Shown: positions 3,688 to 48,217 of the stretch, piece after piece
Position numbering within the stretch: position 1 is the stretch's first letter
How the letters are laid out: each line of letters opens with the position of its first letter
NCBI GenBank assembly: GCA_001774495.1
Contig: MFAE01000005.1
Location: 26,583 to 90,582, forward strand
DNA from: Candidatus Campbellbacteria bacterium RIFOXYC2_FULL_35_25
GTDB taxonomy: Bacteria; Patescibacteriota; Minisyncoccia; Phycocordibacterales; UBA12079
Length of the DNA stretch: 64,000 bases
Direction of reading: 5' to 3'
Position numbers and translations under genes: made by a program
The notes under the pieces: generated by a model
What the model saw: the letters and a program-made list of their open reading frames with translations, nothing else
Told to the model about the DNA's origin: nothing
Database searches by the model: none

Positions 3688-4467
3688 ATGAACAAAGCAA
3701 AAAAGATTTTTTTTGTACTTATTGGAGCGGTTCTTTTAATAACCGCAGGAGACAGAGCCTTGTCACATCTCAATCGTGAGAACATTTCATCAGCTTTCGC
3801 TCGCGGAAAAATTCTAGCACTCTTCGTGAGCGAAGAGGTCTTGCCTTTTTTCACCCACAGTGAAACTTTTGAGTTTTCCTCCCGTGGAAAAACTCAAGCA
3901 TTCTTCTCCCTCGGAGATTTATTGCCTCTTTTTACCCAATATGGGTATGGGAACTTTTCATCCCGAACATCTGCGTGGTTCGCCTTCCGCAAAGCTCATC
4001 CAAGGAGATCGCTTCAGGAAATTCTGCACAGTAGGGCTTATCCCAAAAGATCAAACCGGGAAGTTCAATACTCTAAGAATTACCCAGCAGAAGTAGAAGA
4101 GGAAGCTTGGGACGACAACCCCTCTGACGAGAATGTCATCAACCCAGCGGAGCTCAAGAAGAGACCTCATGAAGTGGCTTCTTGGTATGGCCCAGGATTT
4201 TATTGGAAACAAACTGCCAGTGGGAAATGGTACAACCCAAAGGATAGCTTCGCCGCCCACAGGACTGCTCCGTTGGGCTCAAAAGTTAAGGTCACCAATA
4301 AGTTAAACGGGGAAAGTGTCGTTGTCGAAATTCTTGACAGGGGACCTTTCACCACAGATGGCAAAGGGCGCTACACACGAGACATTGATTTGACTCGGGC
4401 AGCAGCTCTGAAAATCGACATGATTCCAGAAGGCATTGTGCCAGTGGAAATAACTTTTTTGAACTAA
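3688..4467 (+). CDS. rlpA: RlpA-like lipoprotein, double-psi beta-barrel domain, N-terminal signal/TM
   Basis: C-terminal ASWYGPGFYWKQTASG...AAHRTAPLGSKVKVTNKLNGESVVVEILDRGPF matches RlpA/DPBB consensus; terminator 4485-4515. Confidence 0.75.
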   Translation: MNKAKKIFFVLIGAVLLITAGDRALSHLNRENISSAFARGKILALFVSEEVLPFFTHSETFEFSSRGKTQAFFSLGDLLPLFTQYGYGNFSSRTSAWFAFRKAHPRRSLQEILHSRAYPKRSNREVQYSKNYPAEVEEEAWDDNPSDENVINPAELKKRPHEVASWYGPGFYWKQTASGKWYNPKDSFAAHRTAPLGSKVKVTNKLNGESVVVEILDRGPFTTDGKGRYTRDIDLTRAAALKIDMIPEGIVPVEITFLN

Positions 4468-4613
4468 AATAAAAACGAAAGAAGCAGGGTCGATTTATCG
4501 GCCCTGTTTTTCTTTTTAATTAAAAAATTGATTTTTGAAAGAGAATAATGTACATTAGCAGAAGGAAAAGAAACATTTTAATTTTTAATAAACTTGGCTA
4601 GGGAGAAAATACT

Positions 4614-4880
4614 ATGAAAGTATTGCTGCCGCTAGACATCCCTTACGGGAGAACTTGCAAATTTGAAGGAGGAGAAGTTTGCCGACTATTCCTTTGGGGT
4701 CACGAAAATAGTCATTCTTCTTGCCGAGGGTGGAATGGAAGCCAAATTATTGAAAATTTTTTCAAACACCCAGCGTGTTTTGCCTTGCAAGAAAGAGAAA
4801 CGCATTGTTCCTCAGAACACCTGCATTTAGCAACAGGGTCCTGCCCTAGTTGCGATTATGGCAAACCACCCACTCCTTAA
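4614..4880 (+). CDS. hypothetical Cys/His-rich small protein, GC-rich islet
   Basis: 88-aa ORF, AGGGAG SD 8 nt before ATG, elevated GC, followed by GC-rich two-level hairpin element 4881-4930. Confidence 0.35.
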   Translation: MKVLLPLDIPYGRTCKFEGGEVCRLFLWGHENSHSSCRGWNGSQIIENFFKHPACFALQERETHCSSEHLHLATGSCPSCDYGKPPTP

Positions 4881-5000
4881 ATCCGCCCGACGAGAATTCC
4901 CGCTCTCGCTTGGCGGGTTTTCTCATTTTTGGTCAACCCAAAAAAAAAGAAACCCGCTTTGCGTAAACGCAAAGCGGGAGTTCTAGGTAATAAGGACGGC

Positions 5001-5279
5001 TCATCCCGAAGTCAATCCTGTTGCGTCGTAAAGATTCTGAAGGCTTTTTTGGGTTTCTCTCCCGACGACACCGTCAGCCTGCAAATCCGGAGAGGCAAAA
5101 CCCATACCAATGAGTGCATACTGGAAAAGGATTTTACTGTTGCGATGAGGCACATTGTAACGATAGTGCAAGAATATCTCCGCCACAGTGGCCTTGTTGG
5201 GAAGATGCCCCGCTCCTATGCACAAAATTCTCCAACGCTTCTTGATTTCTTCTTGGGACAACTGCTTTTTCTCACACAT
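5001..5279 (-). CDS. hypothetical protein with peptidoglycan-binding-like (PG_binding_1-type) motif DLQADGVVGRETQKSLQNLY
   Basis: 92-aa ORF in GC-rich islet; TGA stop; own hairpin+U-run terminator 4939-4978; overlapping + strand ORF 4929..5306 judged spurious. Confidence 0.4.
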   Translation of the reverse strand: MCEKKQLSQEEIKKRWRILCIGAGHLPNKATVAEIFLHYRYNVPHRNSKILFQYALIGMGFASPDLQADGVVGRETQKSLQNLYDATGLTSG

Positions 5280-5452
5280 CTGAATCCTCCTCTTGGGTTA
5301 AATTGACATCTTTAGTATACGGGCTTTTCTAAAAGTAATAATACTTATTCTGAAAATATAAGCAAGGATCACCAAAAAAACACCAAAAAATAAACGGCTA
5401 AGCTTTAAAAAGCTTAGCCGTTTATTTTTTGATGAATCACATATCTGGTTAT

Positions 5453-5716
5453 CTATTTTAAATCTGCAGCTTGAATAGGACTTTGTATTAAAGGAGGCGT
5501 CATATCGATTTCACCAAACTGTTTTTCATATTCGGCTACTTGTTTATTTATCCAGATGGCAATACTTTTCATAATCTGAGGTGTTGTCGCAAAAGAATCA
5601 AGATTATTACCGGATGTGATAGCAAAGGAAAATAAATCCTTTGCATAACCGCCAATGGCTCCATCACAGAATTTTTTTGGTAATTCGTTTAAATTTATTT
5701 TTGTTGGATCTATCAT
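5453..5716 (-). CDS. hypothetical protein
   Basis: 87-aa ORF, AT-rich native composition, bidirectional terminator 5382-5413 downstream. Confidence 0.4.
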   Translation of the reverse strand: MIDPTKINLNELPKKFCDGAIGGYAKDLFSFAITSGNNLDSFATTPQIMKSIAIWINKQVAEYEKQFGEIDMTPPLIQSPIQAADLK

Positions 5717-5906
5717 ATTTTTTAATTATTATAAGTAATACTCATATGCTATCATAAAAACATCTTTTTTTACTTTGAAATCAAAAAACTTGATTTTGAA
5801 TTTATGTTTGGTATCATCAATGGAATATTAACTCTATTTTAAAATAGTTGTTAAAAAGGAAATGCCTGTATAAAAATAGTGAATATTACAGTATAATATC
5901 CAAATT

Positions 5907-5928
5907 GGCCCTATCGTCTAACGGTTAT
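5907..5928 (+). pseudogene. tRNA-Glu 5' fragment (first ~21 nt) with duplicated promoter; part of 43-bp direct repeat
   Basis: attacagtataatatccaaattggccctatcgtctaacggtta occurs at 5886-5928 and again at 6074-6116 where it continues into the intact tRNA. Confidence 0.7.
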
Positions 5929-6094
5929 TGGAATAAAAAAACAAACTGCTTTGTTTTTTATCCAGTTCTGAGTGTAACGAAGAAATTTCCTTTATCGAAC
6001 GAAGTGAGATAGGAAATAGGGTAAGCCTTCGTTGAAGGCGATGTCTGCTTAAGACATATAAAAATAATCAAGATTACAGTATAATATCCAAATT

Positions 6095-6166
6095 GGCCCT
6101 ATCGTCTAACGGTTAGGACATCGCCTTCTCAAGGCGGAAATTCGGGTTCGATTCCCGGTAGGGTCA
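6095..6166 (+). tRNA. tRNA-Glu (anticodon CUC)
   Basis: GGCCCTA acceptor pairs with TAGGGTC (one G-U); Glu-type short D arm TCGTCTAACGGTTAGGACA; anticodon stem TCGCC/GGCGG, loop TTCTCAA (U33, A37); T-loop TTCGATT; close to E. coli tRNA-Glu. Confidence 0.85.
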
Positions 6167-6217
6167 CACCAAAAGTAAATCCGCCTGAATAAGGCAGATT
6201 TACTTTTGGTGTGACCC
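6161..6217. repeat. 57-bp inverted repeat (25-bp arms) that embeds the tRNA-Glu 3' end; likely terminator/processing hairpin
   Basis: gggtcacaccaaaagtaaatccgcc / ggcagatttacttttggtgtgaccc, one G-U-compatible mismatch. Confidence 0.8.
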
Positions 6218-6267
6218 TAAGAAAGCAAACTTCTTTGCTTTCGTCAGGAATCGAACGGCGGAGTATG

Positions 6268-6381
6268 TCGAGCGAAGCGAGACAGCGAGCCGCGTCCAGC
6301 GATACTTAGGATTTTTTAAAACACGAAGTGACTTAAAAAAGACTTAGTGATCGCGGGACGATTCCCTCCTGTAGGGTCACA
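6268..6381. repeat. tRNA-associated repeat modules: GC-rich cgagcgaagcgagacagcgagccgcg module, inverted copy of GTCCCGCGAT(T/C)ACTAAGTCTTTT, and degenerate tRNA 3'-end copy gggacgattccctcctgtagggtcaca (6355-6381)
   Basis: matches 24841-24863 (inverted) and tRNA-Glu 3' end cgattcccggtagggtcaca. Confidence 0.6.
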
Positions 6382-6431
6382 AACAAAAACCTCCCCACAC
6401 TTACGTGTGAGGAGGTTTTTGTTTAAATACC

Positions 6432-9247: not shown

Positions 9248-9345
9248 ACGTTTAATTATATATTAATTAGTAAGTGGGTGGTAGGAATAAATTAAAAAAG
9301 GTTTTAACTAAAAACTATCAACTATAAACTATAAACTAAACAAAT

Positions 9346-23053: not shown

Positions 23054-23364
23054 AAAAAAGTTTTCAACATTTTTAACTTATCAAAAAATAGTGTAGTATT
23101 CGCTGATGTTCCCAGAAAATAAAAACCGTAATATAAAAAATGAATATGATATCCTCTTAATTTTTATGTTAATGGGAACAGTAATCACCGGTGTTTTTTT
23201 ATTTAAAGTGTCATCTTTTGTTGCGGTAAAAAGCTTTGATTTATTGATGTTAGCAACGGTCAGTAGTTTTTAATTTTTTTATAGAGTAAAATATAAATAT
23301 CTTTTAAAAAAATATTTTATAAATTAATTCTATAAACTATCAACTATAGACTACAAACTTAAAT

Positions 23365-24251: not shown

Positions 24252-24355
24252 AATCTTTGCCCTCTTTAGATTTTAGTTTCAAGTAGCAAACAAAGGTTAA
24301 CAAATCTCAGTTTAATATACATAAATATTAAAGAAAAATCAATAAAAATGATTAA

Positions 24356-24384
24356 ACCGCGCCTTTTGAGGGGCGCGGTTTTTG
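24356..24384. terminator. hairpin accgcgcc ttttgagg ggcgcggt + T-run
   Basis: immediately downstream of 24409..24648 on minus strand. Confidence 0.6.
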
Positions 24385-24408
24385 CCACTGATGGTAGCGG
24401 CGAAACTG

Positions 24409-24648
24409 TTATTGGGAATGTCCCCTTCGTCCGATACTCCTGAAAAAAGAAAACGCCTGAGCGAGGATTCCTGGCCGATGAATAATAGTCTCGGTGACAA
24501 CCTGAGTGGCCCGAGGAACCACAGTACGATGAACTTGCCGTCGTGACGGCCGATGTTTTCTCCGAGATGATTTTTGGGGGATTCCCCACGAAGGAAATCT
24601 CCGTCCATTTCTCTGCTCAGAACTCATTGTTTTCCGACTCGCAACCAT
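24409..24648 (-). CDS. hypothetical very basic (Arg/Lys/His-rich) 79-aa protein, GC ~53%, cargo of tRNA-Phe-associated island
   Basis: strong SD cGGAGGaatatcATG; three overlapping minus-frame ORFs typical of high GC; terminator 24356-24384. Confidence 0.4.
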   Translation of the reverse strand: MVASRKTMSSEQRNGRRFPSWGIPQKSSRRKHRPSRRQVHRTVVPRATQVVTETIIHRPGILAQAFSFFRSIGRRGHSQ

Positions 24649-24749
24649 GATATTCCTCCGTGTCTGAATGGATAAAATGATACTTCCTGCGATATTTATA
24701 CACTATTAGTGGTTATTTGTCAAGGAGTTTTAAATGGCTCTTTTATACG

Positions 24750-24930
24750 GGCTCGTCTCGCGGTTACTAATTTAAAACGGGCTTCGGTCACAAATCACTA
24801 AGTATATTTTTCGCGCTTCGCAACTGCTTAGGGGCGGGTCGTCCCGCGATTACTAAGTCTTTTATTTATTCAAGACTAGTAAAAAGGACTCGGTCACGAA
24901 TCACTAACTTTTTTATTCGTCCTCCGGACT
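24750..24930. repeat. cluster of short direct repeats (T/C)ACTAA units: CGCGGTTACTAA, GGTCACAAATCACTAAG, CCCGCGATTACTAAGTC, CGGTCACGAATCACTAAC; shared with tRNA-Gly and tRNA-Glu loci
   Basis: 24891-24927 ~85% identical to 26425-26460; 24841-24863 matches 6339-6360 inverted. Confidence 0.7.
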
Positions 24931-25040
24931 CCAAAAAACTAAGTGTTCGCGACCCCGCCTCACTCGTCGTGCTCGCTATCGCTCCGCGCGACATCGTTCC
25001 GGCTTCCGAGCCCGCACACAAAGTCCTCAAGGACTTTGCT

Positions 25041-25104
25041 CCCTCGACACAGCAAAAGAAAAAAGACGAATAAATTCGTCTTTTTTCTTTTGCTGTGTCG
25101 AGGG
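25041..25104. repeat. 64-bp perfect palindrome (30-bp arms, loop taaa) whose right arm continues into the partial tRNA-Phe 3' copy
   Basis: ccctcgacacagcaaaagaaaaaagacgaa taaa ttcgtcttttttcttttgctgtgtcgaggg. Confidence 0.85.
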
Positions 25105-25148
25105 GCGGGCTCGGACCGCCGACCCTTCGCTCTTCAGGCGAATGCTCT
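25095..25148 (-). pseudogene. partial tRNA-Phe copy (3' 54 nt: acceptor 3' strand, T arm, anticodon arm, D-stem 3' strand), att-like direct repeat of intact gene
   Basis: 54/54 identity with 25289-25342 then divergence. Confidence 0.8.
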
Positions 25149-25290
25149 CCCTCCTATTGCCTGCTCGCCCTTCGGGACTCGCTTCGGCAATTTTTTGCTT
25201 CGCAAAAACCAGATAAAAAGCTTAAACGCTTTTTATCCAACTGAGCAACGCTCAGTTGCTAGAGCATTAATAAATTTAGTTTATACAGTG

Positions 25291-25363
25291 TGTCGAGGGG
25301 CGGGCTCGGACCGCCGACCCTTCGCTCTTCAGGCGAATGCTCTACCAACTGAGCTACCTCGAC
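25291..25363 (-). tRNA. tRNA-Phe (anticodon GAA)
   Basis: GTCGAGG/CCTCGAC acceptor, D arm TAGCTCAGTTGGTAGAGC, anticodon stem TTCGC/GCGAA loop CTGAAGA, T stem GGCGG/CCGCC with unusual T-loop TCCGAGC. Confidence 0.85.
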
Positions 25364-25494
25364 ATATATTTTATATTTTATGAGAAAACTACCTTTAACA
25401 TCAATTCATTATTAAAGATGCCCCATATTAACATTTTATAAGAAATTACGCATCAAAAAGGACATTTTATAATCTTAAAACTACTAAGAAAAAA

Positions 25495-25794
25495 CTATCG
25501 AGGCAATTCGCCAGTTTTATCCAATAAGCTTGGGAGAATACCGGTCACCTTTTTTATATTTTCAACTAATGCACCAATCCCCTTCCCAACACTACCATAC
25601 CCCTGAGAAAAACCTTCTATTATTGGTTGAACATAGTAATAAGCGCCTAGAGCTAAGCCAATTATAATTAACCAATAAATAAATTTAGTAATTCTCTTCC
25701 ACTTTACGTCTGACCAAATCTTTGAGAGAATTTCATTGTTCTCCTTAGAGACTTCTAAATTTTCTTCTAGTAACTCTTTCAATTCCTCATCCAT
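25495..25794 (-). CDS. hypothetical membrane protein
   Basis: 99 aa, acidic N-terminus, one TM. Confidence 0.45.
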   Translation of the reverse strand: MDEELKELLEENLEVSKENNEILSKIWSDVKWKRITKFIYWLIIIGLALGAYYYVQPIIEGFSQGYGSVGKGIGALVENIKKVTGILPSLLDKTGELPR

Positions 25795-25935
25795 AAGAAA
25801 AATTATAGCAAAAATATCAACAAAGTAAATATAATTAATTGAATTTAAGTCCTAATAATGATATCTTTAAATTTGTTGCCATTACAAAATGTCTGCCTAG
25901 GCAGATTAAGTAGGCTTTAAATTTTTTATATTTGT

Positions 25936-26007
25936 GCCCCCGTAGTTCAATGGATAGAACAGTCCCGTCCTAAGGGATAGATGTGGGTTCGATTCTTGCC
26001 GGGGGCA
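25936..26007 (+). tRNA. tRNA-Arg (anticodon CCU)
   Basis: GCCCCCG/CGGGGGC acceptor, D arm TAGTTCAATGGATAGAAC, anticodon stem GTCCC/GGGAT loop GTCCTAA, T-loop TTCGATT (T stem has 3 G-U pairs); hairpin terminator 26035-26053. Confidence 0.7.
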
Positions 26008-26091
26008 CATGTATAAGAAATTTAAAAAACAAAAAAATCCCCTCTAGGGATTTTTTTGTTTTACTATAATCTATAAACTATCTACTACCAA

Positions 26092-26325
26092 CTATTTCAA
26101 CAATTCTTCAATTCCATTTTTATCAAAACCAAAAACAACTGTTCCATCAATAACAATAACAGGAACTCCCATTTGCCCATCTGTTAGTTTTAACAATTCT
26201 TCTCTCTTTTCTTCACTTCCTGATACATCAATTTCTTCAAACTCAACTCCTTTTTCTCTAAAAAAATCTTTGGCCATTAAACAATAAGTACAAGTTGGTG
26301 TTGAATAAATAATTACTTTTTTCAT
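26092..26325 (-). CDS. glutaredoxin-like protein (CxxC thioredoxin fold)
   Basis: 77 aa, MKKVIIYSTPTCTYCLMAK..., cis-Pro VPVIVIDG. Confidence 0.85.
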   Translation of the reverse strand: MKKVIIYSTPTCTYCLMAKDFFREKGVEFEEIDVSGSEEKREELLKLTDGQMGVPVIVIDGTVVFGFDKNGIEELLK

Positions 26326-26404
26326 AATAAATTAAAGATTAAATTTAATAACGAATTTTATTATAACATAATAAATGGGAACGCAAAATTTTCTTGTATC
26401 TTAT

Positions 26405-26631
26405 TCATGGGTAGGGAGGAGAATCGGTCACGAATCACTAAGCCTTTTGTTCGTCCTCCGCTCGATCATTAGTTTATTGTAGGGAGAATCGCCTTCCAGT
26501 TCTAAGTTCAGCCTTCGCCCTTCGGGACTCGTCTTCACTAAGAACTCGCAGGCCCGTCGCTCGTATTTTTCTTTCGCTTCACTACAGAAAAATATACTTC
26601 GCTCTTTCCGATTCTCCCTACCCGCTACAAA
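26405..26631. repeat. tRNA-Gly-associated mosaic: two direct partial copies of the tRNA-Gly 3' end (26409-26427, 26478-26493), one inverted copy (26607-26625), CGGTCACGAATCACTAAG module (26425-26460) and TCGCCCTTCGGGACTCG module (26515-26531, also at 25165-25181)
   Basis: direct sequence comparison with tRNA-Gly 26675-26745 and tRNA-Phe locus. Confidence 0.75.
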
Positions 26632-26674
26632 AATAAACAAAAACAGAGCTATTCGCTCTGATTTTGTATTTTTG

Positions 26675-26745
26675 TGCGGGTAGGGAGAATCGGACTCCCG
26701 TCTCATCCTTGGGAAGGACGTGTCATACCACTAAACTATACCCGC
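26675..26745 (-). tRNA. tRNA-Gly (anticodon CCC)
   Basis: GCGGGTA/TACCCGC acceptor, anticodon stem CGTCC/GGATG loop TTCCCAA, T stem GGGAG/CTCCC with T-loop TCCGATT. Confidence 0.8.
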
Positions 26746-26809
26746 ATAGATGAATTTTTAATTTCAAATTTCAATTCATTACTACAAACTACTCACTACT
26801 CACTACCAA

Positions 26810-27187
26810 CTAATCAAACCATCCTAAAAACTTGCTCCAAATTCCATCACCTTTACCATCATCTTCTTTTTGCTTGGTGTCTTTGGGATCAATTATCAAA
26901 ACCATTTTTTCTCCACTTTTTGCCACACCAAATTTGCTTCTTATCTCTCCCTCCTCTCCTTCTTTCGTTTTCAAAATTTCAATTTCAGACGATAGATTCT
27001 CTCCTCTTTCTTTTAACTCTTCTAATTCCCGTTGAGCAAGCTCTTTATTAATTCTTGTAATTTTTGATTCCCTGTAAGCGGTCCAAACTCCTTTTAAAAT
27101 AAAAAGGGTCACCAAGGCAAGCAAAAAAATAGTAACCTTTGAATAAATAATTCTTCTGACTACTTGTTTTTCTTCAAAATCAAACAT
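26810..27187 (-). CDS. FtsB/DivIC-like septum formation initiator
   Basis: 125 aa, N-terminal TM, coiled coil, IRSKFGVAKSGEKMVLI matching FtsB C-terminal motif. Confidence 0.6.
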   Translation of the reverse strand: MFDFEEKQVVRRIIYSKVTIFLLALVTLFILKGVWTAYRESKITRINKELAQRELEELKERGENLSSEIEILKTKEGEEGEIRSKFGVAKSGEKMVLIIDPKDTKQKEDDGKGDGIWSKFLGWFD

Positions 27188-28254: not shown

Positions 28255-28293
28255 TAAAAAGGTTTAGCAACAGTTGTTGCTAAACCTTTTTTT
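28255..28293. terminator. hairpin ggtttagcaacagttgttgctaaacc + T-run
   Basis: between convergent 27999..28223 and leuS. Confidence 0.7.
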
Positions 28294-28326
28294 ACTTACT
28301 ACTTGATACTTGCTACTTATTACTTA

Positions 28327-30777
28327 CTACTCATTACTCTCTACCACAATGTTTAAAATTCTATTTTTGACGTAAATGATCTTTTTGGGTTCTTTTCCTT
28401 CAAGCCATTTTTTTATCAATTCGCTTGCAAGAGCTTTCTTGCTAACATCCTCTTCCTCAGTTCCCTCTTCTATTTCTATAGTCTCTCTAACTTTTCCATT
28501 TACCTGAACGGCTATTTTGTGGATACTGTCTTTAGACAAGCTCTCATCAAATTTTGGCCAACTTTCATCTTGAATCAAACTTTCATTTCCCAACTGGTGC
28601 CAAAGCTCTTGTGTAATATGCGGAGCAAAAGGAGAAAGTATTGTTAAAAATGTTTGATAATCTTCTTTTGAGATACTTGATTTTTTTACTGTGTTTATAA
28701 ATTTCATCATATCAGAAACAGCAGTATTATAAGCCAACTCATCTATACCTTTCGTCATTCTTTTAATTGTCTTATGCAATTCCCTAACAACATCTTCAGA
28801 ACTTTTTTCTTTTAGTTCATCTTTGGTAAACCAAACTTTTTCCAAAAATCTATAAACTCCCACTATATTATCTTCATTCCACATTACCTCGTCTTCCAAT
28901 GGTGCAGCAAAAAGCATATAAGTCCTTACGGAATCAGCCCCAAAACTTTTAACCATATCATCTGGATTAACCACATTACCCTTTGATTTGCTCATTTTCT
29001 TGCCCTGCGCGTCCAAAACCATCCCTTGGTGCCTTAGCTTCAAAAACGGCTCATCAAAGTCTAGAAGGCCTATTTTGTTCATCGCTTTTGTGAAAAAACG
29101 AGCAAATAATAAGTGCATATAAGTATGTTCGGCCCCACCAATATACAAATCAACCGGCAACCATTTCTTACGAATTTCTGAACAAAACTCAGAATCATTT
29201 AGAGCATCTGGATATCTTAAAAAGTACCAAGAAGAATCAACAAAAGTGTCCATGGTGTCATATTCGGGAGTCCAACCTTTTCCAAAAATTTTTTCAGTTC
29301 TTTCTTTAAATTCTTTTGAAGCCCCTAATGGAGAAACTCCCTTTGGTTTAAAATCAACATCGATGGGAAGAATCCAAGGAAGATGCTCTTCAGGAACCAA
29401 GGTCGCCTTACCCTCGGGAGAATAAACGATCGGAATCGGACAACCCCAATATCTCTGTCGAGAAATTGACCAATCTCTTAAACGATAATTGGTTGTCATT
29501 TCCCCACCAACAAATTCTGTAATTTTCTTCTTAGCTTCTTCGGAGTTCATTCCATTGAATTGTCCTGATTCCATAAGTAACCCAAAACCTATCGTTGCAA
29601 AACCAGACTCACGAGCACTTTTTATTTTTAATTCTGCTAATCCTGGAATAATTTCGTCAACAGATTTAACCTCAGCTATAACTGGCTTAATTTCAATATC
29701 TTTTTGTAATGCAAACTGAAGGTCTCTATCATCATGAGCCGGCACCGCCATAATCGCACCAGTTCCATAGTTAACCAACACATAATCAGCAATGAAAACT
29801 GGTATTTCTTCGCTGTTAGCTGGATTAATAGCCGAAATTCCCTCAAGCTTCACCCCTGTCTTCTCTTTACCCTCTATTCTCTCCATTTCTGTCTTATTTT
29901 GAGCTTTAATCCCGTACTCCTCAACCTCGTCCCAGTTTGTAATTTGGTCCTTCAATTCGGAAACAAGCGAATGTTCTGGGGCAAGCACCATATAAGTAGC
30001 ACCAAACAAAGTGTCAGGACGAGTAGTAAATACCTCTATTTCGTTCGCTGTTAGCTGTGATCTGTGAGCTGTCAGCTTAAACTTAATCTTTGCTCCTTCA
30101 CTCTTCCCTATCCAATTTCTCTGATTTTTTTTAGTATGTTCTGGCCAATCAACTTTGTCTAAGTCATTAATTAAATCATCGGCGAAATCTGTAATCTTGA
30201 AAAACCACCCTGGTATTTTTTTCTGTTCAATTTGGGTTCCGCATCTTTCACACTCACCATTAAGAACTTGTTCGTTCGCAATTACAGTCTGGCAAGAAGA
30301 ACACCAATTTGCTTTTTGTGTACTTTGATAAACTAAATCATTTTTATAAAATTGTTGAAAAATCCATTGAGTCCATTTGTAGTATTTTGGATCAGAGGTT
30401 ACTGCCTGTTCATCAAAATCATAATTAAGACCCAACATCTTCATTTGTTTAATATAATTGCTGATATTTTTTTCAGTAGTTTGGGCGGGGTGAACTCCTG
30501 TTTTTATTGCAAAGTTTTCAGCCGGCAAACCAAAGGCGTCAAACCCTTGAGGGTGCAAAACATTAAATCCCTGCATCTTTTTGAAACGGTAATATACATC
30601 ACTCGCGGTATAACTTTCAGTATGTCCCATATGAAGACCATCACCGGACGGATAAGGAAACATATCAAGCATGTAAAACTTATTTTTAGTATCGTCTTTG
30701 TCTATTTTAGAAACCTTATTTTCCTCCCAAATCTTTTGCCATTTCCCCTCAATATCATTGTGATTGTATTTTTCCAT
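28327..30777 (-). CDS. leuS: leucyl-tRNA synthetase
   Basis: 816 aa, HMGH and KMSKS motifs, editing (CP1) domain. Confidence 0.95.
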   Translation of the reverse strand: MEKYNHNDIEGKWQKIWEENKVSKIDKDDTKNKFYMLDMFPYPSGDGLHMGHTESYTASDVYYRFKKMQGFNVLHPQGFDAFGLPAENFAIKTGVHPAQTTEKNISNYIKQMKMLGLNYDFDEQAVTSDPKYYKWTQWIFQQFYKNDLVYQSTQKANWCSSCQTVIANEQVLNGECERCGTQIEQKKIPGWFFKITDFADDLINDLDKVDWPEHTKKNQRNWIGKSEGAKIKFKLTAHRSQLTANEIEVFTTRPDTLFGATYMVLAPEHSLVSELKDQITNWDEVEEYGIKAQNKTEMERIEGKEKTGVKLEGISAINPANSEEIPVFIADYVLVNYGTGAIMAVPAHDDRDLQFALQKDIEIKPVIAEVKSVDEIIPGLAELKIKSARESGFATIGFGLLMESGQFNGMNSEEAKKKITEFVGGEMTTNYRLRDWSISRQRYWGCPIPIVYSPEGKATLVPEEHLPWILPIDVDFKPKGVSPLGASKEFKERTEKIFGKGWTPEYDTMDTFVDSSWYFLRYPDALNDSEFCSEIRKKWLPVDLYIGGAEHTYMHLLFARFFTKAMNKIGLLDFDEPFLKLRHQGMVLDAQGKKMSKSKGNVVNPDDMVKSFGADSVRTYMLFAAPLEDEVMWNEDNIVGVYRFLEKVWFTKDELKEKSSEDVVRELHKTIKRMTKGIDELAYNTAVSDMMKFINTVKKSSISKEDYQTFLTILSPFAPHITQELWHQLGNESLIQDESWPKFDESLSKDSIHKIAVQVNGKVRETIEIEEGTEEEDVSKKALASELIKKWLEGKEPKKIIYVKNRILNIVVESNE

Positions 30778-30812
30778 ATCTAAATATATTACAACAAAAA
30801 CATGAAAAACAA

Positions 30813-30852
30813 ACTATACTAAAATTTACGCGACCGCGTAAATTTTAGTATA
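30813..30852. repeat. 40-bp sequence, copy 1 (38-bp perfect palindrome with 18-bp arms; extended to 23-bp arms 30810-30857); identical to 31529-31568
   Basis: actatactaaaatttacgcgaccgcgtaaattttagtata; 75 bp downstream of stop of 30928..31482. Confidence 0.9.
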
Positions 30853-30927
30853 GTTTGTTTTTTCCTTCATTTTATTACTTCTCTTTATTATTTCCCTTTA
30901 TTATTTATTTTTCTTTATTATAAATAA

Positions 30928-31528: not shown

Positions 31529-31568
31529 ACTATACTAAAATTTACGCGACCGCGTAAATTTTAGTATA
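31529..31568. promoter_or_regulatory. 40-bp sequence, copy 2 (identical palindrome), 46 bp upstream of start codon of 30928..31482: candidate operator
   Basis: perfect identity with 30813-30852; position in promoter region; AT-rich promoter between it and ATG. Confidence 0.5.
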
Positions 31569-31610
31569 TCTTGATAAGTAAGATCGAGATTGTTAAGCAT
31601 CAAAAAAACA

Positions 31611-32249: not shown

Positions 32250-32343
32250 ATTATTTATATTATTGAGATTAATAAAAATTCTAATAATAAACTAGAAATT
32301 GAATAGAGAATCATGAATTAAGAATTCTGAATCATGATTCTTT

Positions 32344-32410
32344 ATTCGTGATTCGTGATTCGTGATTCGTGATTCGTGATTCGTGATTCGTGATTCGTGA
32401 TTCGTGATTC
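32344..32410. repeat. heptanucleotide tandem repeat (ATTCGTG) x 9.5, perfect
   Basis: attcgtg units 32344-32406 plus attc; intergenic between SPFH stop (32432) and start of 31695..32249. Confidence 0.95.
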
Positions 32411-32431
32411 TGTTTTGTTAATAAAAAACTA

Positions 32432-33208: not shown

Positions 33209-33372
33209 GGTTAATTTAGTTTATAGTCTATAGTTTTTAGTCTATAGAAAAATATAGTATTAATAATATAATTATAACACAGTCTAGTTTTTAGTTGATA
33301 GTTGATAGTTTTTAGGAAAAAGAAAAAGCCCGTCCCGGAAAAAATTTCATGAGTCTCTCAATTCCTTGCTTT

Positions 33373-33438: not shown

Positions 33439-33485
33439 AACCATGGTGATCTATCCTAACCAATTTAAATATTTTACGAGAAAAA

Positions 33486-33953
33486 AGCCCGTCCCGGAAA
33501 CCGGGGCGGGCTACAAAACAACAAAAAGATAGCTCGGGATCGCTGGGTGGCGGTTTGAAAATTTCATTGACCGTCGCCTTCAGGGCGGTTTTTTACGTCG
33601 CAGGCGTCTCTTTTTGGTGTTTTTCTATTTGGAAACCTCCCCATATAAACAGAGAAGCTCCACCCATAAGAGCAAAACAAATATAGAAAAAAAGCAGGGC
33701 AAAATGATGAAAGAAAAAATCATTTAACCAATTTCGATAAAAATCATTTAACAGAAGAATATTAAGATCTGAAAAAAACAATACTGATACCATCAAGAAA
33801 AAACCAATGGCCACAGAGCAATAAGCAATAGACTTCATAGCACTCCTCCTTTCTTTTTTATACTTTTTTATGAAAGACAAAAAATTCTAACCATAGACTA
33901 ACAACATAGACGAGGGTTGTCAATCATTTTGGCTTCTTTTACAATTATTTAGA
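33486..33953. repeat. 468-bp direct repeat, copy A (apparently 100% identical to 34461-34928); contains gene 33593..33880 and GC hairpin AGCCCGTCCCGGAAACCGGGGCGGGCT
   Basis: base-by-base comparison of the two stretches; identical 95-aa translations. Confidence 0.9.
33593..33880 (-). CDS. hypothetical small membrane protein (2-3 TM), copy A
   Basis: 95 aa; identical to 34568..34855. Confidence 0.5.
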   Translation of the reverse strand: MSFIKKYKKERRSAMKSIAYCSVAIGFFLMVSVLFFSDLNILLLNDFYRNWLNDFFFHHFALLFFYICFALMGGASLFIWGGFQIEKHQKETPAT

Positions 33954-34292: not shown

Positions 34293-34460
34293 TCTTACCT
34301 CCTTATAATGGCTCTGGTTTTTTGTACCGGGTTAAATAATCTATCGTTAGATTAACAGATCAGATTATATTGTCAACAAAAAATTAATTTGATTTTAAAA
34401 TTGGATGCAGAACGAGGAGTTGAGGTAGTTTTTAGTTGATAGTTTTTAGGAAAAAGAAAA

Positions 34461-34928
34461 AGCCCGTCCCGGAAACCGGGGCGGGCTACAAAACAACAAA
34501 AAGATAGCTCGGGATCGCTGGGTGGCGGTTTGAAAATTTCATTGACCGTCGCCTTCAGGGCGGTTTTTTACGTCGCAGGCGTCTCTTTTTGGTGTTTTTC
34601 TATTTGGAAACCTCCCCATATAAACAGAGAAGCTCCACCCATAAGAGCAAAACAAATATAGAAAAAAAGCAGGGCAAAATGATGAAAGAAAAAATCATTT
34701 AACCAATTTCGATAAAAATCATTTAACAGAAGAATATTAAGATCTGAAAAAAACAATACTGATACCATCAAGAAAAAACCAATGGCCACAGAGCAATAAG
34801 CAATAGACTTCATAGCACTCCTCCTTTCTTTTTTATACTTTTTTATGAAAGACAAAAAATTCTAACCATAGACTAACAACATAGACGAGGGTTGTCAATC
34901 ATTTTGGCTTCTTTTACAATTATTTAGG
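34461..34928. repeat. 468-bp direct repeat, copy B
   Basis: identical to 33486-33953. Confidence 0.9.
34568..34855 (-). CDS. hypothetical small membrane protein, copy B (identical to 33593..33880)
   Basis: 95 aa identical protein. Confidence 0.5.
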   Translation of the reverse strand: MSFIKKYKKERRSAMKSIAYCSVAIGFFLMVSVLFFSDLNILLLNDFYRNWLNDFFFHHFALLFFYICFALMGGASLFIWGGFQIEKHQKETPAT

Positions 34929-39776: not shown

Positions 39777-40004
39777 TTATTTCATAATATCTTTCAACTC
39801 ATCTTGATGCGCCTGCATAACTTCCATAGTAGCGGCCATCTGATCTTTTCCCTCTTTCATCTTGGCTTGAACTTCAAGACCGATTTTTTGGAAAAGCTCT
39901 GGATTTTTTTCAATTAATAGTAAAATTTTTTCTTGCTCTGCCTCTGGGACTCCTTTCATTTGAGACTTGAGCATCTTCTTCATTAACATATTTTTTATTC
40001 CCAT
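39777..40004 (-). CDS. hypothetical Met/Lys/Glu-rich helical small protein
   Basis: 75 aa; G-less AAACTATAAACTAATAACTAACGACTAAACC leader before ATG. Confidence 0.4.
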   Translation of the reverse strand: MGIKNMLMKKMLKSQMKGVPEAEQEKILLLIEKNPELFQKIGLEVQAKMKEGKDQMAATMEVMQAHQDELKDIMK

Positions 40005-40252
40005 AGGTTTAGTCGTTAGTTATTAGTTTATAGTTTTTAGAAAATTTTTAAAAACAAAAACTTATTTGCAATTAATTTATAATTAATAAAATAATAACAC
40101 AGGAGGATAGAAAATAAAAATAAAAAACACTTCTAGTTTTTTTCATACTTAAATTTATATAGGCATGAAAAAAACCGCCGAAGCGATTTCTTTCATAGTA
40201 CCTATTAAGTAGCAAGCTAAATAATAAGTACTTTAATTAGTATACTAAAGTG

Positions 40253-45726: not shown

Positions 45727-45845
45727 AGAAAATTTTTACGAAAATTTTAGTATTAAGTAATAAGTAGTAAGTATTAAGTATAAATGAAAAAGTTAAAAGT
45801 TGAAAGTTTATAATTTCTAGCGAGGACGAAAGGGAGGTATAGTCC

Positions 45846-46100
45846 ATGAAAAAAATTGATCGTGAGGCAATTATAATTATTTTTGTTGTTCTCTTGGTAT
45901 GCAGTCTTTTTAGAAGCACGCGTACCATACACTCTCTCGAGGAGAATCTATCCTCGATCGAAACTGCTGTGATGAGAGAGTGTGACTTCTCTAATGAGGA
46001 ATGCATCACCTGCAAACCAAAAGGGATTGTCGCCGTAAAACATCATCTCGACGGAAGTAATGAATTTATTTGGGGCAAGGATAAAGTTTCTAGAATCTAG
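45846..46100 (+). CDS. hypothetical protein
   Basis: 84-aa ORF with SD GGGAGG; moderately GC-rich. Confidence 0.3.
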   Translation: MKKIDREAIIIIFVVLLVCSLFRSTRTIHSLEENLSSIETAVMRECDFSNEECITCKPKGIVAVKHHLDGSNEFIWGKDKVSRI

Positions 46101-46263
46101 GCCTCCGACGAAATTCAAACTCCTTTGGAAAGTGAGCCGATTGATACATCGGTATACTAACCAGAATACACCTAGCCTAGGGGGCCTCGGAACTTGTTTG
46201 TTCCGTGGCCTCTTTTTTTGTTTGTTAAAAAGTCACAAGCCTAGCTTGTGACTTTTTAAAGAT

Positions 46264-46289
46264 TTGTTACGTAGCATGCTACGTAACAA
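46264..46289. repeat. 26-bp perfect palindrome ttgttacgtagcatgctacgtaacaa inside a 500-bp hairpin-rich intergenic region (46100-46595)
   Basis: self-complementary; neighbours: hairpins 46230-46254, 46430-46462, 46488-46530 and GC-rich CCGTCGTTTCGCTTCGCTCC module also seen at tRNA loci. Confidence 0.8.
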
Positions 46290-46594
46290 GGTTCTGAATT
46301 GCTTCGAAATTACTCCCCGAGGCCTCACCTCTCCCGTCGTTTCGCTTCGCTCCACTTCTCCTCGAGGACTTAAAATTTTTTAGGAAAAGTTTTAAGCAAC
46401 GACGGGCCTCCGTCCGTAATTTCTCGCAAAGACGACGAAAGGCAGAGCCTTTCGTCGTCTTTTAAAAATTAATTTATTAAAAATTTTTAAACCCCCACCC
46501 CTTTCTTTTCCAAAACAAAGGTGTGGGGGTTTAAAAATTAAAAATTAAAAATTTCAGATGTTTTTTCTACTCACTACTCACTACCAACTACTCA

Positions 46595-47527
46595 CTATTC
46601 CTGTGCAACTTTTTCTATACTAGCAGAAACTAATTTTCCCACGTCTTTGAAACGGCCTTCTCGGGAAGAACCTAAAACAGAAACAATGATAGGATGACCT
46701 ATGCCAATATCAAAAGCGATAACTAAATTTCCTCCAGCCAAATCTGTAAAGCCGGTTTTAGAAGCAATTATTCCGGGGATGGCTTCCGCGTATTGATTGG
46801 TATTGTAAACAGTATGAGTAAAATCTTTTGATTTTATTTCCAAACTCGAATATTTTGTAGCCTCAAGAATCTGCGGTTTCTCTTTTATGATCTGCCCCAT
46901 TAGCATAGCCACATCTTTTGCCGAACCATAGGCCCCACCAACATCCTGACTTACATCTAACCCAGATTCGTTTAAAAAATAAGTTTGGATTAATCCTAAA
47001 TTTTGAGCTTTTTGGTTCATTTCTTTAATAAACATTTCTTCCTGTGTTTGTCCCTCTCCTGTATTAATAGAACCTATGATAGAGGCAAGGGCGTGCGCTC
47101 CATCATTAGATGAAGATACTAAAGTAAAGTCCAAAACATCAGCGAGTCTCCATTTTTCACCCATCAAGAAACCACTATCCCCTTCTTCGTTGATGTCCTG
47201 ACTGTCTATGGTAACAATGATTCCTTCTGGAACTAATTCTGAAACAACTAGTGCTGTCATTAACTTTGTTAAAGATGCCAAAGGTAACTGAGCTTCCCCA
47301 TTCATTGAATAAATTATTTTATTTTCGTAAGTGTCCCAAACGAAAGCTGATTTTGCTTCCAAAACCAAGTCTTCAAATGGATCTATTTTTTCTTCCGCAA
47401 TATTGACCTCTGATTCAATTATTATTTCTTCTTTTTTACTTAAAAAATAAAAAAGAAAAACGCCCACCAAAACGACAGTGGTTGTTATTAGAACAATAAT
47501 TTTATTTTTATTTTTTGCGAAATTCAC
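46595..47527 (-). CDS. D-alanyl-D-alanine carboxypeptidase (S11, PBP5-like)
   Basis: 310 aa, SLTK, SSN, KTGFT motifs, N-terminal TM. Confidence 0.8.
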   Translation of the reverse strand: MNFAKNKNKIIVLITTTVVLVGVFLFYFLSKKEEIIIESEVNIAEEKIDPFEDLVLEAKSAFVWDTYENKIIYSMNGEAQLPLASLTKLMTALVVSELVPEGIIVTIDSQDINEEGDSGFLMGEKWRLADVLDFTLVSSSNDGAHALASIIGSINTGEGQTQEEMFIKEMNQKAQNLGLIQTYFLNESGLDVSQDVGGAYGSAKDVAMLMGQIIKEKPQILEATKYSSLEIKSKDFTHTVYNTNQYAEAIPGIIASKTGFTDLAGGNLVIAFDIGIGHPIIVSVLGSSREGRFKDVGKLVSASIEKVAQE

Positions 47528-47557: not shown

Positions 47558-48109
47558 TTAAAAGCTTTCAAAGCCTTTTTGTTGTGCTTGGATTTGATTA
47601 TCTTCAATTTCTTTTTGAGTTTGTTCATATTCAGGTAATTCTTTCAGTTCAGAAATCCCCAGATAGGACAATAATTCAAATGTTGGTAAGTAAAAAAAAC
47701 TTCTTTGATTATTTTCATCGGTTTTTCTTTCAACCAATCCTCTAACCAAAAGATTTCTCAAAATAGTTGCCGAGTTAACCCCTCTAATATAATCAATCTC
47801 TGATTTCCTCACAGGCCCGCGATACAGAACAATAGAGAGAGTTTCCAAACTGGCTTTACCTAAATCTTTTGATAATTCTTCCTTCTTTAATGACTCAATA
47901 ATTTCGTGGGCCTCAGGACCAGTGGCAAGCATTACCTTGTCATCCTTAAAAATTAATCTTATACCCCGGTCCTCTAACTTTATTTTTAATTCTTCTAAAC
48001 TAGTTTTAATATCATCTTCTTTTACATTCAAAATGCTTGCCAATTTTTTATATGACATGGCCTCCCCTTTAAAAAATAATATCGCTTCAATTTGTTTATC
48101 TAGATTCAT
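47558..48109 (-). CDS. scpB: segregation and condensation protein B
   Basis: 183 aa, tandem wHTH ScpB motifs. Confidence 0.85.
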   Translation of the reverse strand: MNLDKQIEAILFFKGEAMSYKKLASILNVKEDDIKTSLEELKIKLEDRGIRLIFKDDKVMLATGPEAHEIIESLKKEELSKDLGKASLETLSIVLYRGPVRKSEIDYIRGVNSATILRNLLVRGLVERKTDENNQRSFFYLPTFELLSYLGISELKELPEYEQTQKEIEDNQIQAQQKGFESF

Positions 48110-48217
48110 AATATTTTAGTCGATAGTTTATAGACTATAGTTTATAGTATAAAATTATATTATTAAAGTATAAATTATCTAAATTCTATAGACTATCAAC
48201 TAAAAACTATAGACTGT

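What the first reader, a model, noticed from the sequence alone, without database searches (positions are those of the whole stretch)
24750..26631. Shared short repeat modules link the tRNA-Glu, tRNA-Phe and tRNA-Gly loci
A ~37-bp module, CGGTCACGAATCACTAA(c/g)-TTCGTCCTCCG, occurs at 24891-24927 and 26425-26460 at ~85% identity. GTCCCGCGAT(T/C)ACTAAGTCTTTT occurs at 24841-24863 and inverted at 6339-6360. TCGCCCTTCGGGACTCG occurs at 25165-25181 and 26515-26531. A GC-rich CGTCGT..CGCT.CGCTCC module occurs at 24963-24990, 26545-26585, 6268-6300 (inverted) and also at 46335-46360. The modules are GC-rich, unlike the host DNA. They sit only in tRNA 3' flanks, plus the hairpin-rich 46100-46595 intergenic region. 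This pattern is consistent with a family of small non-autonomous elements or the conserved ends of tRNA-targeting integrative elements.
Basis: seen in the sequence. Interest (0 to 1): 0.6.

Follow-up and report, generated by a model that had tools for sequence, protein, structure and literature searches.

The report
tRNA T-loop insertion elements of Patescibacteria
The short repeats behind three tRNA genes are pieces of a ~200-base, protein-free, tightly folded DNA element found behind tRNA and tmRNA genes across the Patescibacteria, apparently undescribed; it seems to insert into the tRNA T-loop while supplying a replacement tRNA 3' end.

Summary
The fourth, a GC-rich module that also links to 46.3 kb, is weak.

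The modules are parts of one structured element of 201-221 nt. It sits directly 3' of tRNA-Glu, tRNA-Phe and tRNA-Gly.

An 18-mer from the element occurs in more than 120 genome stretches, almost all Patescibacteria of many classes. A covariance model built only from other genomes recovers all three window copies. It also finds 135 copies in 100 sources, 110 of them downstream of a same-strand tRNA or tmRNA.

Anatomy, from T-loop position C56:
- a copy of the tRNA 3' remainder;
- a terminator hairpin;
- an inverted copy of that remainder;
- two covarying hairpins;
- the displaced original 3' remainder, which decays.

The elements carry no ORF, and no recombinase recurs nearby. Occupancy differs between species, and elements stack in tandem.

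Best reading: a non-autonomous element that folds as a single strand and targets the T-loop, moved by an unknown enzyme acting in trans. I found nothing like it in Rfam 15 or in the searched literature. The mechanism is inferred, not shown.

The parts
6095..6167 (+). tRNA-Glu(CTC), host gene. Its last 19 nt, from C56 at 6149, are also the first segment (X) of the element.
   Evidence: ARAGORN and Rfam.
6149..6358 (+). Glu-locus element, 210 nt, variant B. H1 (6147-6255) holds the tRNA 3' remainder, a terminator hairpin, the inverted copy X' and a side hairpin. H2 is 6256-6292 and H3 is 6293-6360.
   Evidence: The model hit at 6243-6370 scores 62.7 bits, E 4.8e-15. The ssDNA fold has z = -11.6. 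Antisense tRNA fragments lie at 6211-6219 and 6247-6256.
6339..6361 (+). Right-end module, B type: AAGACTTAGTGATCGCGGGACGA. This is the 3' strand of H3.
   Evidence: It pairs with 6293-6312, with compensatory changes relative to type A.
6359..6380 (+). Copy 2: the displaced, degenerate tRNA-Glu 3' remainder (CGATTCCCTCCTGTAGGGTCAC). A separate terminator follows at about 6383-6425.
25290..25363 (-). tRNA-Phe(GAA), the functional copy. Its T-loop reads TCCGA (C55).
25095..25151 (-). Older partial tRNA-Phe copy (positions 21-74). It forms a 58-nt direct repeat with 25289-25346. The canonical element is attached to this copy.
   Evidence: (family D18, 98% identical).
24893..25113 (-). Phe-locus element, 221 nt, type A. 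H1 (25115-25005) includes the perfect 31-bp palindrome at 25041-25104. H2 is 25003-24957 and H3 is 24954-24892.
   Evidence: The model hit at 24881-25017 scores 87.6 bits, E 8e-22. The ssDNA fold has z = -13.8. Palindrome: pair I16.
24890..24927 (-). Right-end module, type A (GTTAGTGATTCGTGACCGA), plus the 3' half of hairpin b.
   Evidence: family D11.
24750..24863 (-). Stack of three truncated older elements. The right-end modules are at 24839-24861 (B), 24784-24802 (A') and about 24750-24772. Each is followed by a few nt of the tRNA-Phe 3' remainder.
26674..26745 (-). tRNA-Gly(CCC), host gene. Its T-loop reads TCCGA (C55).
26492..26692 (-). Gly-locus proximal element, 201 nt, variant C. H1 (26694-26608) contains the bidirectional terminator at 26644-26660. 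H2 is about 26594-26555.
   Evidence: The model hit at 26480-26619 scores 30.6 bits, E 2.5e-6. The ssDNA fold has z = -11.0. Terminator. Antisense 19-mer at 26607-26625.
26409..26460 (-). Distal truncated type-A element. It keeps the 3' half of hairpin b and the module at 26424-26442, followed by a degenerate tRNA-Gly 3' remainder at 26409-26427.

Best explanation
**What it is.** The modules are parts of a small (about 170-230 nt), protein-free insertion element specific to the T-loop of tRNA and tmRNA genes in Patescibacteria.

**Anatomy.** The element lies between T55 and C56 of the gene. Reading in tRNA sense, it contains:
1. its own copy of the tRNA 3' remainder (X, from C56 to just past the discriminator), which keeps the tRNA intact;
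2. an intrinsic terminator hairpin;
3. X', an inverted copy of X that also complements T54-T55, so that X, the terminator and X' form one long hairpin (H1);
4. two further hairpins (H2 and H3), whose bases and joining bases are highly conserved and whose tips vary freely.

The gene's original 3' remainder is pushed downstream as copy 2 and decays.

**Inferred mechanism.** The tRNA-sense strand folds as single-stranded DNA into three hairpins, which brings the two element ends together. An enzyme supplied in trans cuts and joins at T55|C56. The kind of enzyme is unknown; a single-strand transposase or recombinase is a guess. Because the element carries X, it can safely enter only a matching tRNA gene. 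Once copy 2 has decayed, precise loss would break the tRNA, which locks the element in place. Repeated entry builds the tandem stacks seen at the Phe and Gly loci.

**Shown versus inferred.**
- Shown: the anatomy, conservation, covariation, tRNA association, repeat boundaries, variable occupancy and differential decay.
- Inferred: mobility, the single-stranded DNA form, the cleavage positions and the enzyme.
For: Almost all are Patescibacteria of many classes.

**Independent recovery.** A model built from 67 copies in other genomes finds exactly three full-length copies in the window, all 3' of tRNAs.

**tRNA association.** The model finds 135 copies in 100 sources. Of these, 110 follow a same-strand tRNA or tmRNA, covering 21 tRNA identities plus tmRNA. 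The median gap is 63.5 nt.

**Structure.** 94% of cells are paired against 78.5% in shuffles. The covariation score is 0.407 against 0.131 (0 of 500 shuffles reach it), and slid controls give about 0.05. One H2 pair shows CG 25, GC 22, AU 14, UA 4.

**Repeat boundaries.**
- The module's last triplet follows the tRNA: TT|CGA with AC|CGA in 41 cases, TT|CAA with AC|CAA in 3.
- The repeat ends 0 to +3 nt beyond the tRNA end as called by ARAGORN in 31 of 50 cases.

**X' is kept while copy 2 decays.** Where the two differ (31 cases), X' pairs better with the tRNA's X in 28 and with copy 2 in 1.

**Occupancy varies between species**.
- tRNA-Gly(CCC) is filled here but empty in L061 and L082.
- tRNA-Arg(CCT) is empty here and in L031 and L082, but filled in L015 and L061 with different cores.

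**Tandem stacks** occur at the window Phe and Gly loci and in L107.

**Pointers to single-stranded DNA rather than RNA.**
- A terminator hairpin plus T-run lies between the tRNA and the core in 74 of 92 elements.
- Of 133 terminal loops, 66 are triloops (31 GNA, mostly C-GAA-G), 1 is GNRA and none is UNCG.
- In helices, G.T pairs outnumber A.C pairs 42 to 23 on the tRNA-sense strand.

**Fold of the window copies.** As single-stranded DNA, all three fold into three consecutive hairpins with z-scores of -11 to -14.

**No coding capacity.** The units contain no ORF, and no protein family recurs beside them.
Against: - No transposase or recombinase has been linked to the elements, and no excised form or recent transposition event has been observed.
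- A cut-and-paste element that carries X cannot by itself explain how matched X/X' pairs arose for about 21 tRNA identities plus tmRNA.
- Similar variable hairpins at different tRNAs within one genome could reflect gene conversion rather than movement.
- The loop statistics and the terminator position argue for DNA over RNA only indirectly. Read-through transcription is not excluded.
- The left end has no conserved sequence beyond the T-loop, which is unusual for transposase-driven elements.
- The sample of loci was chosen by an exact match to the right-end 18-mer, so occupancy figures are biased.
Confidence: 0.55

Rival explanations
1. A host functional RNA. The unit would be transcribed as a tRNA 3' trailer or on its own. 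It would act through its tRNA-like minihelix and antisense arm, for example in tRNA processing, quality control, as a decoy, or as a small-RNA sponge like known 3' external transcribed spacers.
For: - The sequence and structure are conserved across the phylum, with covariation.
- X' is kept complementary to the functional tRNA.
- Wobble pairs favour the tRNA-sense strand.
Against: - An intrinsic terminator separates the tRNA from the core in 74 of 92 cases.
- No promoter is evident between them in the window.
- The same tRNA is occupied in some species and empty in others.
- Tandem stacks contain decaying members.
- Loops are triloop-rich, with almost no GNRA or UNCG loops.
- No Rfam family matches.
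Confidence: 0.15
2. Leftover attachment sites, or cis-mobilizable mini-elements, of ordinary integrase-driven islands or prophages that integrate in the T-loop of tRNA and tmRNA genes. The conserved core would be the integrase arm region.
For: - A direct repeat of the tRNA 3' end starts in the T-loop, which is a known crossover sublocation (established knowledge of tRNA-targeting integrases).
- tmRNA is also used.
- In L011, a 6.5-kb defence island lies between two element copies.
Against: - No integrase lies in or beside the units, including in L011 and L107.
- The size is uniform at about 200 nt.
- Base-pair covariation points to selection on a folded single strand, not on double-stranded protein-binding sites.
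- The same right end is used at about 21 different tRNA identities.
- No phage or plasmid copies were found.
Confidence: 0.15
3. Not mobile at all. The structure would be a by-product of fold-back template switching at tRNA terminators, which generates inverted plus direct duplications of the tRNA 3' end, later homogenised by gene conversion.
For: - X, the terminator and X' form a near-perfect palindrome centred on the terminator loop (pair I16).
- TTCGAA is itself palindromic.
- In 4 of 50 cases the direct repeat runs 18-23 nt past the tRNA into the terminator.
Against: - It does not explain a conserved, covarying two-hairpin core of about 100 nt, shared by more than 100 species at many different tRNAs.
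- It does not explain why different core variants occupy one site.
Confidence: 0.05
4. Generic REP-like intergenic repeats that happen to lie near tRNAs in this window.
For: They are GC-rich hairpins in an AT-rich genome.
Against: - 110 of 135 copies follow a same-strand tRNA or tmRNA. Most of the rest are at locus edges.
- None lies elsewhere in the 64-kb window.
- Each copy carries sequence matched to its own tRNA.
Confidence: 0.02

Closest known systems
Genomic islands and prophages that integrate in the T-loop of tRNA or tmRNA genes by tyrosine integrases
   Same: The target is the T-loop. The element supplies a replacement tRNA 3' end, and the original 3' end is left downstream as a direct repeat. 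tmRNA is also used.
   Different: Here there is no integrase and no cargo, and the unit is only about 200 nt. It carries an inverted copy of the tRNA end and a covarying hairpin core. One right end serves about 21 tRNA identities.
IS200/IS605-type single-strand elements and their protein-free derivatives (PATEs); REP elements with RAYT transposases
   Same: These are strand-specific hairpin structures near both ends, with no terminal inverted repeats. Non-autonomous copies are moved in trans. Internal bases pair with flank bases at the cleavage site; here that would be the AA of X' pairing with T54-T55 (an inference).
   Different: Those elements make no long duplication of the target, insert next to a 4-5-nt motif anywhere in the genome, and have similar left and right hairpins. 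Here the left hairpin is tRNA-derived. No Y1 transposase has been linked.
Folded single-strand attachment sites: integron attC and the CTX-phage attP(+) used by XerCD
   Same: A single strand folds so that sense and antisense copies rebuild a duplex. The stem bases are conserved while the distal stems vary, and there is a conserved bulged base.
   Different: There are no GTTRRRY core sites, no dif-like target, no IntI gene nearby and no cassette ORF. The fold has three arms, not one.
Group I introns in the T-loop of tmRNA genes and in tRNA anticodon loops of Patescibacteria (PMC11915505, PMC13011429)
   Same: They use the same small target region and are frequent in this phylum.
   Different: The tRNA gene here is uninterrupted, nothing matches the group I intron model, and the unit is too small.
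Casposons (Cas1-driven) at tRNA 3' ends
   Same: They give site-specific insertion at the 3' part of tRNA genes with a fixed-length target duplication.
   Different: Casposons make 14-15-bp duplications, have terminal inverted repeats, are large and encode Cas1 and a polymerase. None of these features is present here.

Membership tests
tRNA-targeting integrative element (tyrosine-integrase island or prophage) | An integrase gene inside the element, next to one att site | tested here: not met
   The 201-221-nt units contain no ORF. No recombinase is found in the window, in L011 or L107, or among clustered neighbours of about 120 loci.
tRNA-targeting integrative element (tyrosine-integrase island or prophage) | A direct repeat of the tRNA 3' end flanks the insert, with the crossover in the T-loop | tested here: met
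   The repeat starts at C56 and ends at the tRNA end +0 to +3 nt in 31 of 50 cases. An exact repeat lies 126-250 nt upstream in about half of the hits.
MITE | Terminal inverted repeats matching a parent IS, and a short fixed target duplication | tested here: not met
   The left end is tRNA-derived and locus-specific, and the right end is the conserved module. The two ends are not inverted copies of each other. The repeat is about 19-22 nt.
REP / BIME | Many copies scattered through intergenic DNA, independent of gene type | tested here: not met
   110 of 135 copies lie behind tRNA or tmRNA genes; only three full-length copies occur in 64 kb, all behind tRNAs.
IS200/IS605-derived single-strand element (PATE) | Strand-specific hairpins at both ends | tested here: met
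   Hairpins H1 and H3 are present, with covariation and a wobble bias on one strand.
IS200/IS605-derived single-strand element (PATE) | A Y1 (HUH) transposase in the same genomes, and no target duplication | not tested
   Whole genomes were not available. Under this model the flanking repeat is carried by the element rather than made at insertion, which these data cannot settle.
Integron attC | R''/R' core sites (RYYYAAC ... GTTRRRY) and an IntI-linked cassette array | tested here: not met
   The core sites are absent from the consensus, and there are no cassette ORFs.
Group I intron | It interrupts the gene and matches the group I catalytic core | tested here: not met
   The tRNAs are contiguous. 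No Intron_gpI hit appears at E<=5-10.
Any Rfam 15 family | A covariance-model match | tested here: not met
   Only the tRNA and tmRNA genes themselves match.

The most novel reading that the evidence does not exclude
A previously unrecognised class of protein-free selfish DNA that parasitises the most conserved hairpin in biology. It would fold as a three-armed single strand and use a tRNA-matched sense/antisense arm to home into the T-loop of essentially every tRNA species and tmRNA in Patescibacteria. It would replace the gene's 3' end and then become irremovable as the displaced end decays. Its mobilising enzyme, and the way new tRNA-matched arms are made, would then be new biochemistry. 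That could be a tRNA-shape-reading single-strand recombinase, or a templated way of copying the target into the element.
Probability: 0.35. Interest if true: 0.9.

Novelty: new variant of a known kind. Interest (0 to 1): 0.8.

Why it matters
- Patescibacteria have tiny, streamlined genomes, yet many of their tRNA genes and their tmRNA gene carry this ~200-nt structured passenger. Three of the four tRNA genes in this window are occupied.
- If the elements are mobile, they are a site-specific element with no protein of its own and a tRNA-matched arm. They would point to an unidentified enzyme that recognises tRNA-gene shape in single-stranded DNA.
- They would add a new case of an element that makes itself irremovable.
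- Practically, they explain partial tRNA calls such as the false tRNA-Phe at 25095-25169.
- They may also contribute to assembly breaks or rearrangements in MAGs (L128, L129).
- The covariance model could serve as a simple marker for the phylum.

Tried and rejected
- **Known RNA families.** Rfam at gathering and E-value thresholds, on the window and on a canonical copy, gave nothing.
- **Ribozyme look-alikes.** By eye, hairpin b (GAG...CGAA) resembles hammerhead or hairpin-ribozyme cores. It lacks the CUGA box and has no model hit.
- **Primer-binding site for reverse transcription.** The antisense arm complements the genomic trailer (CAC), not CCA, so I rejected this reading.
- **Split, permuted or intron-containing tRNA.** Rejected, because the upstream tRNAs are intact.
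- **Phage or plasmid origin.** Three pattern scans of viral contigs gave 0, 0 and one chance hit inside a coding region. blastn against phages and plasmids found nothing.
- **A full-length autonomous copy.**
  - L011 has 7 kb between two copies, but it is a defence island without a recombinase.
  - The 2-kb cargo in L107 has no recombinase-like ORF by eye (one ORF looks like a regulator; not scanned against Pfam).
  - Clustering 523 neighbouring ORFs gave only what look like housekeeping families (not Pfam-checked).
- **LysRS synteny.** In relatives the tRNA-Glu locus is not conserved, so no empty-site comparison was possible.
- **The 24252-24750 region.** It is not a detectable RNA family. 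Its 79-aa ORF is an orphan.
- **Same-species contigs.** They are identical to the window except L129.
- **Literature.** Five searches found no description.
Full report
**Setting.** The window is chromosomal DNA of a low-GC member of the Patescibacteria (CPR). The best LysRS relatives are Paceibacteria-like MAGs at 81% identity or less, and the neighbouring genes are housekeeping genes. Four tRNA genes are present: Glu 6095-6167 (+), Phe 25290-25363 (-), Arg 25936-26008 (+) and Gly 26674-26745 (-).

**Checking the observation.**
- The 37-bp module, the GTCCCGCGAT.ACTAAG module and the 17-mer TCGCCCTTCGGGACTCG are all at the stated places. Each has zero matches expected by chance.
- The GC-rich module reduces to an 11-mer shared by 6270-6280 and 46342-46352, which is only marginally unusual.
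- The 46.1-46.6 kb region is a run of hairpins. It has no detectable relation to the rest.

**What lies behind the tRNAs.**
- Mapping each tRNA against the window shows that each flank holds sense and antisense fragments of its own tRNA.
- Read in tRNA sense, every shared module is followed by the local tRNA's 3' remainder, beginning in the T-loop.

**Breadth.**
All but one of the named organisms listed are Patescibacteria: Saccharibacteria, Paceibacteria, Kaiser-, Campbell-, Yonath- and Lloydbacteria, and Minisyncoccia. The single Psychromonas hit lacks the rest of the element.
- In these loci the 18-mer lies about 150-230 nt behind a tRNA or tmRNA on the same strand. It is followed by that gene's 3' remainder.
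- An exact 14-nt repeat lies 126-250 nt upstream in about half of the hits.

**Common anatomy**. In tRNA sense the order is:
1. the tRNA up to T55;
2. X, running from C56 to just past the discriminator;
3. a terminator hairpin, usually bidirectional;
4. X', the reverse complement of X plus T54-T55, often interrupted by a conserved side hairpin (AGAAAGC...GCTTTCGTC);
5. AG.CG.AG;
6. variable hairpin a;
7. GAG..GGGGTCG.GAACACTTAG;
8. variable hairpin b;
9. CTTAGTGATTCGTGAC;
10. copy 2 of X.

**The model and what it finds.**
- A covariance model was built from 67 copies in other genomes. Scoring every position of the window, it finds three full-length copies and nothing else of note:
  - 24881-25017 (-), 87.6 bits;
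  - 6243-6370 (+), 62.7 bits;
  - 26480-26619 (-), 30.6 bits.
Modules 1 and 2 are the 3' strand of the last hairpin, in two variants whose stems differ by compensatory changes. Module 3 is the tip of hairpin b in a third variant at the Gly locus. Module 4 is hairpin a.
- In 100 sources the model finds 135 copies at E<=1e-5.
  - 110 have a same-strand tRNA or tmRNA within 700 nt upstream, and 93 have one within 120 nt.
  - 21 tRNA identities plus tmRNA are represented.
  - 13 of the 25 exceptions sit at a locus edge.

**Structure.**
- 94% of cells are paired, against 78.5% after shuffling. The covariation score is 0.407 against 0.131 (0 of 500 shuffles reach it), and slid controls give about 0.05. 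One pair of the second hairpin shows CG 25, GC 22, AU 14, UA 4.
- G.T pairs outnumber A.C pairs 42 to 23 on the tRNA-sense strand. A G.T pair in the last hairpin is present in 63 of the 67 model sequences and is replaced by A-T in the other four.
- Folded as single-stranded DNA from T54 to the right end, the three window elements each form three consecutive hairpins. Their z-scores are -13.8, -11.6 and -11.0.

**Boundaries.**
- The last triplet of the right-end module follows the tRNA's T-loop: CGA with CGA in 41 cases and CAA with CAA in 3. The repeat therefore starts at C56.
- The repeat ends 0 to +3 nt beyond the tRNA end as called by ARAGORN in 31 of 50 cases. In 4 cases it runs 18-23 nt further, into the terminator.
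- Defined this way, the window elements are 6149-6358 (210 nt), 25113-24893 (221 nt) and 26692-26492 (201 nt).

**Which parts are maintained.**
- Copy 2 is identical to the tRNA's 3' remainder in 31 of 93 elements and is degraded in many others.
- Where copy 2 differs, X' still complements the functional tRNA in 28 of 31 cases and complements copy 2 better in 1.
- So X' is retained while copy 2 decays. That fits copy 2 being the displaced original 3' end, and the X-terminator-X' hairpin being a working part of the element.

**Signs of gain and loss.**
- The same tRNA is occupied in some species and empty in others.
  - Gly-CCC is filled here and empty in L061 and L082.
  - Arg-CCT is empty here and in L031 and L082. 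It is filled in L015 and L061 with different cores.
- Elements stack in tandem.
  - At the window Phe locus, a complete element is followed by three truncated ones.
  - At the Gly locus, a complete variant-C element is followed by a truncated type A.
  - L107 shows a similar stack.
- Other core types share the same tRNA-terminator-X' layout.

**DNA or RNA?**
- A terminator hairpin with a T-run lies between the tRNA and the core in 74 of 92 elements, and 59 of these are bidirectional.
- Terminal loops are dominated by triloops: 66 of 133, of which 31 are GNA, mostly C-GAA-G. There is one GNRA loop and no UNCG loop. From established knowledge, GNA triloops closed by C-G make unusually stable DNA mini-hairpins, whereas structured RNAs favour GNRA and UNCG.
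- Both points suggest a single-stranded DNA structure, but neither proves it.
- The host tRNAs run in the same direction as most neighbouring genes and as the GC-skew trend. That would put the folding strand on the lagging-strand template. This is an inference.

**Enzyme.**
- None was found. The units contain no ORF.
- The window has no recombinase among the ORFs tested.
- No protein family recurs among 523 neighbouring ORFs.
- Phage, viral-contig and plasmid collections hold no copies.

**Open problem.**
- An element that carries X can safely enter only the matching tRNA gene. How matched X/X' pairs arose for so many tRNAs is unexplained.
- Similar variable hairpins at different tRNAs in one genome could reflect movement or gene conversion. 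Examples are the window Phe and Gly type-A copies, and L008 with L024.

**Comparison with known systems.**
- The target and the replacement of the tRNA 3' end match integrase-driven islands. However, there is no integrase, and the covariation pattern is that of a folded strand.
- The hairpin ends and protein-free copies recall IS200/IS605 derivatives. The rebuilt duplex recalls attC and the CTX-phage attP. The defining sequence features of those systems are absent.
- Group I introns use the same loop in tmRNA (PMC11915505) and the anticodon loop of Patescibacteria tRNAs (PMC13011429). They interrupt the gene, and their models do not match here.
- Five literature searches found no description of this element.

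**Verdict.** The 46-kb link should be dropped. Identity and anatomy are well supported; the mechanism is a reasoned inference.

Noticed in passing
window 5869-6115 and 25094-25346; L090 4200-4520: A second kind of duplication sits at tRNA position 21/22. At Glu, a 59-nt repeat (promoter plus tRNA positions 1-21) flanks a 129-nt insert at 5928-6056. At Phe, a 58-nt repeat (tRNA positions 21-74) flanks a 137-nt insert at 25152-25288. The Glu insert ends with an antisense copy of the anticodon arm. It has an 80%-identical homologue, also repeated, upstream of tRNA-Glu in another genome (L090). This may be a separate family that targets the D-loop.
   Followed up: partly
window 25111-25115, 25306-25310, 26690-26694; L056 2882-2954: tRNA-Phe (both copies) and tRNA-Gly have the T-loop TCCGA, with C instead of the near-universal U55. 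Only one other of 193 tRNAs examined has this. The C matches the base before CGA in the element's right end, so it could be a recombination scar.
   Followed up: partly
window 24252-24750 (-): A GC-rich 0.5-kb stretch lies at the far end of the Phe stack. It has a promoter-like TTGACA-17-TATAAA, a strong ribosome-binding site, a 79-aa basic ORF (24409-24648) and a terminator. The ORF has no homologue beyond identical copies, and no RNA family matches.
   Followed up: partly
window 9294-9341, 23330-23362, 26779-26815, 28289-28353, 30038-30078, 32300-32417, 33217-33341, 40003-40066, 45741-45805, 46564-46614, 48107-48215, 52856-52938: Many intergenic regions hold short arrays of 7-nt-period repeats, such as (TAGTNNN)n, (AGCTGTN)n and (GTGATTC)n, often just upstream of genes. 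Each array has its own unit.
   Followed up: no
L129 1-170 versus window 24907 onward: A contig of the same species is identical to the window from the right-end module downstream. Upstream of it, the contig carries a different element whose arm matches another tRNA. This is either a rearrangement through the shared module or a chimeric assembly. A second contig (L128) ends inside the same module.
   Followed up: partly
L011 363-7760: A 6.5-kb defence island (GmrSD-like nuclease, EcoRI-type methylase, AbiE toxin-antitoxin pair) lies between two copies of the element behind tRNA-Asn. It contains no integrase.
   Followed up: partly
L009 2828-2960, L124 180-308, L026 4810-4942, L077 6436-6570, L061 6499-6700: Other tRNAs carry the same tRNA-terminator-antisense layout but with different cores. 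This suggests a wider superfamily than the one modelled.
   Followed up: partly
window 33482-33781 and 34457-34756: A perfect 300-nt direct repeat occurs 975 nt apart. Each copy overlaps a 95-aa ORF with a faint pilin-like match.
   Followed up: no
window 30805-30862 and 31529-31573: A perfect 28-bp palindrome and a 91% matching copy flank a 184-aa ORF that has a Cas2-like (PaaX middle) domain. A second 184-aa ORF follows.
   Followed up: no
window 46100-46595: This intergenic stretch holds five separate palindromes or terminator-like hairpins and no recognisable RNA family. Its function is unknown.
   Followed up: partly
window 3000-6400: Cumulative GC skew peaks here, and gene orientation switches between tRNA-Glu and LysRS (convergent). 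This may be the replication terminus.
   Followed up: no
L002 5500-5700; L004 5740-5990: Relatives carry other GC-rich intergenic repeats, such as tandem ~55-nt units and motifs like CCTCGCAATGACGG. These are unrelated to the tRNA element.
   Followed up: no
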